A DNA stretch of 64,000 nt from assembly GCF_044324875.1 (NCBI RefSeq), contig NZ_CP172185.1. One strand, 5' to 3'. Position numbers: made by a program. Position 1 is the stretch's first letter, and the number at the start of each line of letters is the position of its first letter. The stretch comes from Escherichia coli (lineage in GTDB: Bacteria; Pseudomonadota; Gammaproteobacteria; Enterobacterales; Enterobacteriaceae). Shown piece after piece: positions 61,901-64,000 of this stretch.

Positions 61901-64000
61901 TCCGCAATAACGTCGGCAACTTTGGCGGTTTTCTTTCCATTCACAAACTTTCGCAGTAATTCCATGACAGAGACAGAATCAGCGATTCTGGCGCACGCCC
62001 GGCGATGTGCGCCAGCGGAGTCGTGCGGCTTCGTGGTGAGAGCGCCGGAGGGGGAAAGATATTTCCCCTGCGTGAATATCTCCGGTGAGCCGGAGGCGTA
62101 TTTCCGGATGTCGCCGGAGGACTGGCTGCAGGCAGAGATGCAGGGTGAGATTGTGGCACTGGTCCACAGTCACCCCGGTGGTCTGCCCTGGCTGAGTTAG
62201 GCCGACCGGCGGCTGCAGGTGCAGAGTGATTTGCCGTGGTGGCTGGTCTGCCGGGGGGCGATTCACAAGTTCCGCTGTGTGCCGCATCTCACCGGGCGGT
62301 GCTTTGAGCACGGGGTGACGGACTGTTACACGCTGTTCCGGGATGCTTACCATCTGGCGGGAATTGAGATGCCGGATTTTCATCGCGGGGATGACTGGTG
62401 GCGTAACGGTCAGAATCTCTATCTTGACAATATGGAGGCGACTGGTTTTTACCGTGTCGCACTGACAGAGGCGCAGCCCGGCGACGTGCTGCTGTGCTGT
62501 TTTGGTTCATCGGTGCCGAATCATGCCGCCATTTACTGCGGCGACGGCGGGCTGCTGCACCATATTCCTGAACAACTGAGCAAACGAGAGAGGTATACCG
62601 ACAAATGGCAGCGACGCACACACTCCCTCTGGCGTCACCGGGCATGGCACGCATCTGCCTTTACGGGGATTTGCAACGATTTGGCCGCCGCATCGACCTT
62701 CGTGTGAAAACGGGAGCCGAAGCCATCCGGGCGCTGGCCACGCAGCTCCCTGCGTTTCGTCAGAAACTGAGCGACGGCTGGTATCAGGTGCGTATTGCCG
62801 GGCGTGATACAGGCGAAAACGAATTATCAGCCCGTCTTAATGAACCGCTGGCAAATGGTGCCGTGATCCACATCGTGCCGCGTCTGGCGGGAGCCAAACG
62901 TGGTGGTGTGTTTCAGGCAGTGCTGGGCGCGGCGCTGATTGCGGTGGCATGGTGGAACCCTGCAGGCTGGCTGGGGGCTGCGGCTTTATCGGGCATGTAT
63001 GCGGCAGGGGCCAGTATGGTGCTCGGTGGTGTGGCGCAGATGCTGGCACCGAAAGCCAAAACCCCCCGCACACAGACAACGGATAACGGCAAACAGAACA
63101 CCTATTTTTCTTCACTGGATAACATGGTTGCCCAGGGGAATGCTCTGCCCGTTCTGTACGGTGAAATGCGCGTGGGGTCACGGGTAATTTCGCAGGAGAT
63201 CAGCACAGCGGATGAGGGGGATGGCGTCCGGGTTGTGGTGATTGGTCGCTGATGCAAAATGTTTTATGTGAAACCGCCTCCGGGCGGTTTTGTCGTTTAT
63301 GGAGCGTGAGGAATGGGTAAAGGCAGCAGTAAGGGGCATACCCCGCGCGAAGCGAAGGACAACCTGAAGTCCACGCAGTTGCTGAGTGTGATCGATGTCA
63401 TCAGCGAAGGGCCGATACAAGGACCGGTGGATGGATTAAAAAGCGTGCTGCTGAACGGTACGCCGGTGCTGGACAGTGAGGGGAATACCAACATCTCCGG
63501 TGTCACGGTGGTGTTCCGTGCCGGTGAGCAGGAGCAGACACCGCCGGAGGGGTTTGAATCCTCCGGCTCCGAGACGGTGCTGGGTACGGAAGTGAAGTAC
63601 GACACGCCGATTACCCGGACCATCACGTCGGCAAACATCGACCGTCTGCGCCTGACCTTCGGTGTGCAGGCACTGGTGGAAACCACCTCAAAGGGGGACC
63701 GGAATCCGTCGGAAGTCCGCCTGCTGGTTCAGATACAGCGTAACGGTCGCTGGTTAACGGAAAAAGACATCACCATTAAGGGCAAAACCACCTCGCAGTA
63801 TCTGGCCTCGGTGGTGGTGGGTAACCTGCCGCCGCGCCCGTTCAGTATCCGGATGCGCAGGATGACGCCGGACAGCACCACAGACCAGCTGCAGAACAAA
63901 ACGCTCTGGTCGTCATACACCGAAATCATCGATGTGAAACAGTGCTACCCGAACACGGCACTGGTCGGTGTGCAGGTGGATTCGGAGCAGTTCGGCAGCC

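What the first reader, a model, noticed from the sequence alone, without database searches (positions are those of the whole stretch)
62198..62200. In-frame amber codon inside tail assembly gene K
The K homologue matches lambda K across both halves but has TAG where lambda has GAG (after ..GGLPWLS), with the frame continuing unchanged. This is either a third independent inactivation of the tail module or a suppressor-dependent allele.
Basis: seen in the sequence. Interest (0 to 1): 0.35.

Follow-up and report, generated by a model that had tools for sequence, protein, structure and literature searches.

The report
Nonsense mutation in prophage tail gene K
A single G-to-T change has put a stop codon in the middle of the tail-assembly gene K of a lambda-like prophage whose tail genes Z and H are already broken by insertion sequences, so this is ordinary prophage decay and not a special coding device.

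Summary
TAG at 62198-62200 is codon 79 of a 247-codon lambda-K homologue (61964-62707), and the frame runs on unchanged to the normal TGA. The closest K gene found (E. coli NZ_CM148325) differs at this one base only (G there, T here), inside a 957-bp block that is otherwise identical. The stop lies between Ser78 and Asp81 of the JAMM zinc-site motif of the N-terminal Prok-JAB domain. It also precedes the whole NlpC/P60 domain, so both predicted peptidase domains are lost from the primary product. The allele is private. No TAG version was found in 5,426 complete E. coli genomes (1,056 records carry the GAG 63-mer exactly), in GTDB representative genomes, in IMG/VR (GAG control: at least 120 hits) or in JGI metagenomes. 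The same tail module carries IS2 in gene Z and ISSso4 (IS21 family) in tape-measure gene H, both clean insertions with target duplications. All other head, terminase, lysis and tail genes checked are intact. The window holds no amber-suppressor tRNA, and host genes there use TAG as an ordinary stop. Best reading: a recent loss-of-function point mutation in a defective prophage integrated in mlrA. A base-call error cannot be excluded without reads. Interest is low.

The parts
61964..62707 (+). Tail tip assembly gene K homologue, 247 codons, now a pseudogene (Prok-JAB domain residues 4-98, NlpC/P60 domain residues 114-224 in the read-through translation)
   Evidence: Translation; Pfam; tblastn against intact K; 743/744 bases identical to L001 K
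62198..62200 (+). In-frame amber codon (TAG, codon 79). The ancestral codon was GAG (Glu), so this is a G-to-T transversion at 62198. It lies between Ser78 and Asp81 of the JAMM motif H68-S-H70-x7-S78-x-x-D81
   Evidence: motif alignment to PDB 2kks; motif definition from PMC300881
61964..62200 (+). Primary translation product expected from the mutant gene: a 78-aa N-terminal fragment lacking the Asp zinc ligand and the whole NlpC/P60 domain
62219..62707 (+). Downstream remnant ORF (GTG at codon 86; a TTG follows at 62231, codon 90) covering the whole NlpC/P60 domain. It would be expressed only if translation re-initiated, and its Shine-Dalgarno complementarity is weak (-5.0 and -4.1 kcal/mol, against -9.3 for gene I)
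52024..53354 (+). IS2 (1,331 bp, InsC/InsD-type ORFs) inserted in tail gene Z. The 5-bp target duplication GGATC is at 52019-52023 and 53355-53359. Z fragments are at 51805-52023 and 53355-53722
56876..59514 (+). ISSso4 (IS21 family, istA/istB; 2,639 bp) inserted in tape-measure gene H. The 7-bp target duplication AGATGGC is at 56869-56875 and 59515-59521. H fragments are at 55710-56875 and 59515-60935
   Evidence: 100% identity to annotated ISSso4 copies; end defined by four independent copies
60932..61959 (+). Intact neighbours M (60932-61261) and L (61261-61959) upstream of K
   Evidence: 99.1% and 99.6% identity, full length, no stops
62605..63252 (+). Intact tail assembly gene I, overlapping the 3' end of K, with its own strong Shine-Dalgarno sequence
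39412..39565 (+). Two prophage tRNA genes (anticodons CAT and TTT). Neither is an amber suppressor

Best explanation
The TAG is a recent, lineage-private G-to-T nonsense mutation (GAG Glu79 to TAG) in the tail tip assembly gene K of a lambda-like prophage integrated in mlrA. Ribosomes should stop after 78 residues. The fragment has the Glu and two His residues of the JAMM site but lacks the Asp ligand, and the NlpC/P60 domain is not translated, so K function is lost. Lambda needs gpK as a non-virion tail-assembly factor. The prophage already cannot build tails, because IS2 splits Z and ISSso4 splits the tape-measure gene H. K is therefore under no purifying selection, and the stop is one more step of prophage decay. 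Shown here: the base change, its position in the domains, its absence elsewhere, and the two IS insertions. Inferred: the loss of function, and neutrality as the reason the mutation persists. The order of the three lesions is unknown.
For: One-base difference from the closest K, inside a 957-bp block otherwise identical to that relative. GAG in lambda and two other relatives. Domain positions and alignment of the JAMM motif to 2kks. Zero exact TAG 63-mers in 5,426 complete E. coli genomes against 1,056 records with the exact GAG 63-mer. Zero TAG in GTDB representatives, IMG/VR (GAG control at least 120 hits) and JGI metagenomes. IS2 and ISSso4 have canonical lengths, ends and target duplications and sit in Z and H. 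Both IS junctions are also absent from the complete genomes. No suppressor tRNA in the window. TAG ends two host genes in the window. gpK is required for lambda tail assembly but is not found in virions (PMC12617516 and PMC10721106).
Against: Only 4.0% of possible single-base changes in K create a stop, yet the only change in 957 bp is a stop. That is mildly unexpected for a first neutral hit, although the site was picked out because it is a stop. No reads are available, so a base-call error is not excluded. Loss of function is inferred, not measured. Versions of K with only the NlpC/P60 domain exist in some prophages (PMC1779556), so a restart product might keep some activity.
Confidence: 0.85

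Rival explanations
1. Sequencing or assembly error: the true base at 62198 is G, and K is intact in the organism.
For: The TAG allele is seen in this one sequence only. It is the sole difference from a relative over 957 bp. A stop is an a priori unlikely outcome of a random change (4.0%).
Against: The other 18 late genes checked have no frameshifts or stops, and the IS boundaries are base-perfect, so the assembly does not look error-prone. A random substitution error is no more likely than a real mutation to produce a stop. A prophage with two IS-broken tail genes is exactly where real pseudogenes are expected.
Confidence: 0.07
2. The gene is split but still useful. Translation re-initiates at GTG 62219 (codon 86) or TTG 62231 (codon 90) shortly after the stop and yields a free NlpC/P60 peptidase of about 160 aa, alongside a 78-aa N-terminal fragment.
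For: In-frame GTG and TTG codons lie 19 and 31 nt after the stop, upstream of the whole NlpC/P60 domain. Iyer et al. report prophages whose K has only the NlpC/P60 domain (PMC1779556).
Against: Shine-Dalgarno complementarity is weak (-5.0 and -4.1 kcal/mol against -9.3 for gene I). No relative has this split. Iyer et al. themselves suggest that NlpC-only versions are degenerate. With Z and H broken there is no tail for K to assemble.
Confidence: 0.04
3. Suppressor-dependent or read-through allele: the UAG is decoded by a host or phage suppressor tRNA, or by near-cognate read-through, giving full-length K.
For: The frame is perfectly preserved downstream. Position 79 is not a metal ligand of the JAMM motif, so a substituted residue might be tolerated. 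The prophage carries an odd tRNA with anticodon TTT, and first-position near-cognate reading of UAG by such a tRNA is conceivable (own knowledge).
Against: The window has no tRNA with anticodon CTA. TAG terminates two host genes in the window. The stop is not conserved in any relative, which argues against programmed recoding. Rescue of K would be pointless with Z and H interrupted. The preserved downstream frame is expected anyway for a very recent mutation.
Confidence: 0.02

Closest known systems
Bacteriophage lambda gpK (tail tip assembly protein K; TAPK of Iyer et al. 2006; annotated 'C40 family peptidase')
   Same: Same gene order M-L-K-I-J. About 94-95% nucleotide identity to lambda-group phages. 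Same Prok-JAB plus NlpC/P60 architecture. Same 247-codon ORF as in re-sequenced lambda.
   Different: Codon 79 is TAG instead of GAG, so the ORF is interrupted inside the JAMM motif. No such interruption was found in any relative.
Classical lambda sus (amber) mutants in tail genes, made in the laboratory and grown on suppressor hosts
   Same: An amber codon in an essential tail-assembly gene, with an otherwise wild-type frame.
   Different: This is a natural prophage in a non-K-12 Escherichia chromosome. It carries two IS-disrupted tail genes, and no suppressor tRNA is in view. Nothing points to laboratory origin or suppressor dependence.
Defective or cryptic lambdoid prophages of E. coli and Shigella that decay by IS insertion and point mutation
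   Same: Several independent lesions (IS2, ISSso4, a nonsense codon) in a prophage otherwise very similar (97-99%) to intact relatives, integrated at a known lambdoid attachment locus (mlrA/yehV).
   Different: Decay is at an early stage. All 18 other late genes checked are intact, and all three lesions seen fall in the tail module.

Membership tests
Lambda gpK / TAPK tail tip assembly protein | N-terminal Prok-JAB (MPN) domain with the JAMM motif E...H-S/T-H-x7-S-x-x-D | tested here: met
   Pfam PF14464, E = 6e-14, residues 4-98 of the read-through translation. E19, H68-S-H70, S78 and D81 align with the motif of PDB 2kks. The motif is encoded but is cut by the stop between S78 and D81.
Lambda gpK / TAPK tail tip assembly protein | C-terminal NlpC/P60 (C40) peptidase domain | tested here: met
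   Pfam PF00877, E = 9e-12, residues 114-224. It lies entirely downstream of the stop.
Lambda gpK / TAPK tail tip assembly protein | Position between L and I in the M-L-K-I-J tail tip cluster | tested here: met
   tblastn mapping of M, L, K and I. Same order in annotated relatives and in lambda.
Lambda gpK / TAPK tail tip assembly protein | One uninterrupted ORF of about 247 codons (a functional gene) | tested here: not met
   Internal TAG at codon 79. By homology this is a K gene, but as it stands it is a pseudogene.
Suppressor-dependent (sus/amber) phage allele | A cognate amber-suppressor tRNA (anticodon CUA) available in the phage or the host | tested here: inconclusive
   No such tRNA among the two tRNA genes in the 64-kb window. 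The rest of the host genome is not available.
Suppressor-dependent (sus/amber) phage allele | The phage is otherwise viable, so suppression restores growth | tested here: not met
   Z is split by IS2 and H by ISSso4.
Programmed stop-codon read-through or recoding | The in-frame stop is conserved among related functional genes | tested here: not met
   No TAG at this codon in complete E. coli genomes, GTDB representatives, IMG/VR or JGI metagenomes, while GAG is abundant.
Pseudogene of a decaying (defective) prophage | A disabling lesion relative to intact close homologues, with further independent lesions in the same element | tested here: met
   One-base nonsense change against a 743/744-identical relative, plus IS2 in Z and ISSso4 in H. 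All three lesions are absent from 5,426 complete genomes.

The most novel reading that the evidence does not exclude
The three private lesions all fall in the tail module, while about 8 kb of terminase and head genes and the lysis genes stay intact. This could reflect selection on the host for losing tail production or K peptidase activity, with the amber allele leaving a separately translated NlpC/P60 fragment that still has a role. On this reading the stop, which is the only change in 957 bp and has a 4% prior, would not be a neutral accident.
Probability: 0.04. Interest if true: 0.45.

Novelty: already known. Interest (0 to 1): 0.08.

Why it matters
It matters mainly for annotation. K at 61964-62707 should be annotated as a pseudogene (internal stop), and the prophage as defective for tail formation because of three independent lesions. 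It should not be counted as an inducible, infectious phage. The case also shows an early stage of prophage decay, in which a point mutation and two IS insertions are all recent and private. Nothing here points to a new coding mechanism.

Tried and rejected
1. Exact look-up of the 78-aa N-terminal fragment found NCBI records (WP_062892938.1 and others). On inspection, the three contigs simply end inside K and read G or GA at the critical position. They are contig-end truncations and not amber alleles.
2. The 162-aa and 158-aa C-terminal ORFs are not in the protein collection.
3. Attempts to identify the source genome failed. The H-IS fusion ORF and the integrase are not on record. The exact I protein led to a chimeric-looking contig with an intact K. 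The exact BglX led to an E. coli with an unoccupied mlrA. The host is therefore known only as an Escherichia chromosome 96-98.5% identical to complete E. coli genomes.
4. I first suspected an IS-rich Shigella-like host, but the chromosomal part of the window (6448-23622) is collinear with E. coli and has no IS.
5. I first read a 14-bp target duplication around ISSso4. Comparison of four copies showed that 7 of those bases (TGCAAAA) belong to the element's left end, so the duplication is 7 bp.
6. I considered whether lambda's 199-aa K showed that an N-terminally truncated K works in a functional phage. The short annotation comes from one missing G in the 1982 reference, and that G is present in re-sequenced lambda.
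7. I searched for the same IS junctions in other genomes to order the three events. None was found.

Full report
**Observation.** The bases at 62198-62200 are TAG. The ORF that starts at ATG 61964, five bases after the TAA of gene L, reads MTETESAILAHARRCAPAESCGFVV...HSHPGGLPWLS, then TAG. It continues in the same frame as ADRRLQVQSDLPWWLVCRG...AASTFV to TGA at 62705-62707, 247 codons in all. tblastn with the intact K protein of a related prophage aligns residues 1-247 without gaps at 99.2% identity, with exactly one stop in the hit.

**What the gene is.** With the stop read as Glu, Pfam finds a Prok-JAB domain (residues 4-98, E = 6e-14) and an NlpC/P60 domain (residues 114-224, E = 9e-12).
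- This is the two-peptidase architecture that Iyer et al. describe for the lambdoid tail assembly protein K. They predict that it processes the ubiquitin-like protein I (PMC1779556).
- Alignment to the JAB protein 2kks, together with the published motif EXnHS/THX7SXXD whose His and Asp residues bind zinc (PMC300881), places the motif at E19, H68-S-H70, S78 and D81.
- The amber codon is residue 79, between Ser78 and Asp81. The 78-residue product lacks one zinc ligand, the rest of the JAB domain and the whole NlpC/P60 domain.
- In lambda, gpK is required for tail assembly, but it is not detected in virions and has not been resolved in cryo-EM maps (PMC12617516, PMC10721106).

**Origin of the stop.**
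- K homologues occur in 4,373 of 5,426 complete E. coli genomes and are annotated as full-length C40 family peptidase.
- The best match (NZ_CM148325) differs from the window at one base in 744: G there, T here at 62198.
- Around K, the window and that relative are identical from 61962 to 62918 (957 bp) apart from this base, whereas the flanks are mosaic.
- Lambda and two further prophages also have GAG. The event is therefore a G-to-T transversion, GAG (Glu) to TAG.
- Only 4.0% of all possible single-base changes in K give a stop. A stop as the sole change is mildly unexpected, but the site was selected for attention because it is a stop.

**Is the allele found elsewhere?**
- A 63-mer centred on the TAG has no exact match in the complete E. 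coli genomes. The same 63-mer with G matches exactly in 1,056 records.
- The exact 51-mer is absent from the GTDB representative genomes.
- A pattern degenerate at third codon positions found no TAG in IMG/VR or in JGI metagenomes.
- NCBI records of exactly the 78-aa fragment proved to be contig-end truncations reading G/GA at the critical position.
- The stop is therefore private to this sequence. That rules out a conserved, programmed stop and rules out a naturally split K in functional relatives.

**Context.**
- The window holds Escherichia chromosome up to 23622, where a lambdoid prophage interrupts mlrA (yehV) next to an integrase gene.
- Against an intact relative (L004), the lysis, terminase, portal, protease, D, E, FI, FII, U, V, T, M, L and I genes are all full length without stops.
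- Gene Z is split by a 1,331-bp IS2 (52024-53354) flanked by the 5-bp duplication GGATC.
- The tape-measure gene H is split by ISSso4, an IS21-family element that is 100% identical to copies in other E. coli. Comparison of four independent copies shows that the element starts with TGCAAAATGGCATC. It therefore spans 56876-59514, with the 7-bp duplication AGATGGC.
- Neither IS junction exists in any complete E. coli genome.
With Z and H broken no tail can be made, so K is free of purifying selection.

**Suppression and restart.**
- ARAGORN finds two tRNA genes in the window, with anticodons CAT and TTT and none with CTA. Two chromosomal genes in the window end in TAG.
- In-frame GTG (62219, codon 86) and TTG (62231, codon 90) codons could in principle restart translation ahead of the NlpC/P60 domain. 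Their Shine-Dalgarno complementarity is weak, at -5.0 and -4.1 kcal/mol against -9.3 for gene I.
- Iyer et al. note that NlpC-only K versions exist in some prophages and may be degenerate.
- These readings are not excluded, but nothing supports them.

**A side result on lambda.** The reference NC_001416 annotates K as 199 aa starting at Met49 of the long ORF. The upstream 46 codons are homologous but out of frame, because one G is missing at GGAGGC-TATTTCC. Only four records, including J02459 and NC_001416, share this. Other lambda records and lambda derivatives span one more base, and PV340536 annotates a 744-nt K. The 247-aa form is therefore the normal one, and functional lambda does not show a split K.

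**Verdict.** This is a genuine-looking, private nonsense mutation that turns K into a pseudogene in a prophage already disabled by IS2 and ISSso4. It is ordinary prophage decay. The main uncertainty is whether the base call is right, and that needs the reads.

Noticed in passing
L130 (lambda NC_001416 13000-15600), about locus 1267; corresponds to window about 62097: The lambda reference sequence lacks one G (GGAGGC-TATTTCC) relative to all relatives. This puts the first 46 codons of the 247-codon K ORF out of frame and explains the classical 199-aa K annotation. Re-sequenced lambda records carry the extra base and a 744-nt K. This is probably an error in the 1982 sequence, or a deletion specific to that stock, which still propagates in RefSeq and UniProt.
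   Followed up: partly
window 39489-39565 (+): This is the second prophage tRNA gene. It lies at the position of the tRNA-Arg(TCT) gene of related prophages, but it has anticodon TTT, compensatory changes in the anticodon stem, and several non-canonical pairs. Its Rfam tRNA score of 31.2 bits is just above the threshold of 29. It may be an identity-switched or a degenerating tRNA. It is not an amber suppressor.
   Followed up: partly
window 22933-23622 (-) and 23655-24941 (-): The prophage is integrated in mlrA (yehV), the curli and biofilm regulator gene, about 43 nt from its 5' end, with the integrase gene immediately adjacent. The host's mlrA is therefore truncated.
   Followed up: partly
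window 56869-56882 and 59515-59528: ISSso4 inserted just upstream of an H sequence (TGCAAAA) that is identical to the first 7 bases of the element. This produces an apparent 14-bp flanking repeat, although the real target duplication is 7 bp. It may reflect a preference for targets that resemble the element's own end.
   Followed up: yes
window 37710-38813 (-): A 367-aa OmpC/NmpC-like porin gene lies on the opposite strand between the Q antiterminator gene and the tRNA and lysis region. It is prophage cargo of the kind seen in other lambdoid prophages.
   Followed up: no
window 53708-56881 against 42111-51896 and 59515-64000: The prophage is a mosaic relative to its best relatives. It is 97-99% identical in the head genes and in H(C-terminal part)-M-L-K-I, but only 70-84% identical in U, V, G, T and the N-terminal part of H. 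One mosaic boundary lies near the ISSso4 insertion site.
   Followed up: no
L005, L006 and L007 (contig ends): Three unrelated draft assemblies break their contigs within 2 nt of each other inside K, right after codon 78. This probably marks the edge of a repeat shared by several prophages per genome. These breaks create 'partial' 78-aa protein records that mimic the amber truncation.
   Followed up: partly
L128 (GCA_900482235.1 UDHK01000047.1): This contig shows several partly duplicated copies of the M-L-K-I region in tandem. It looks like an assembly artefact or a rearranged tail module.
   Followed up: no
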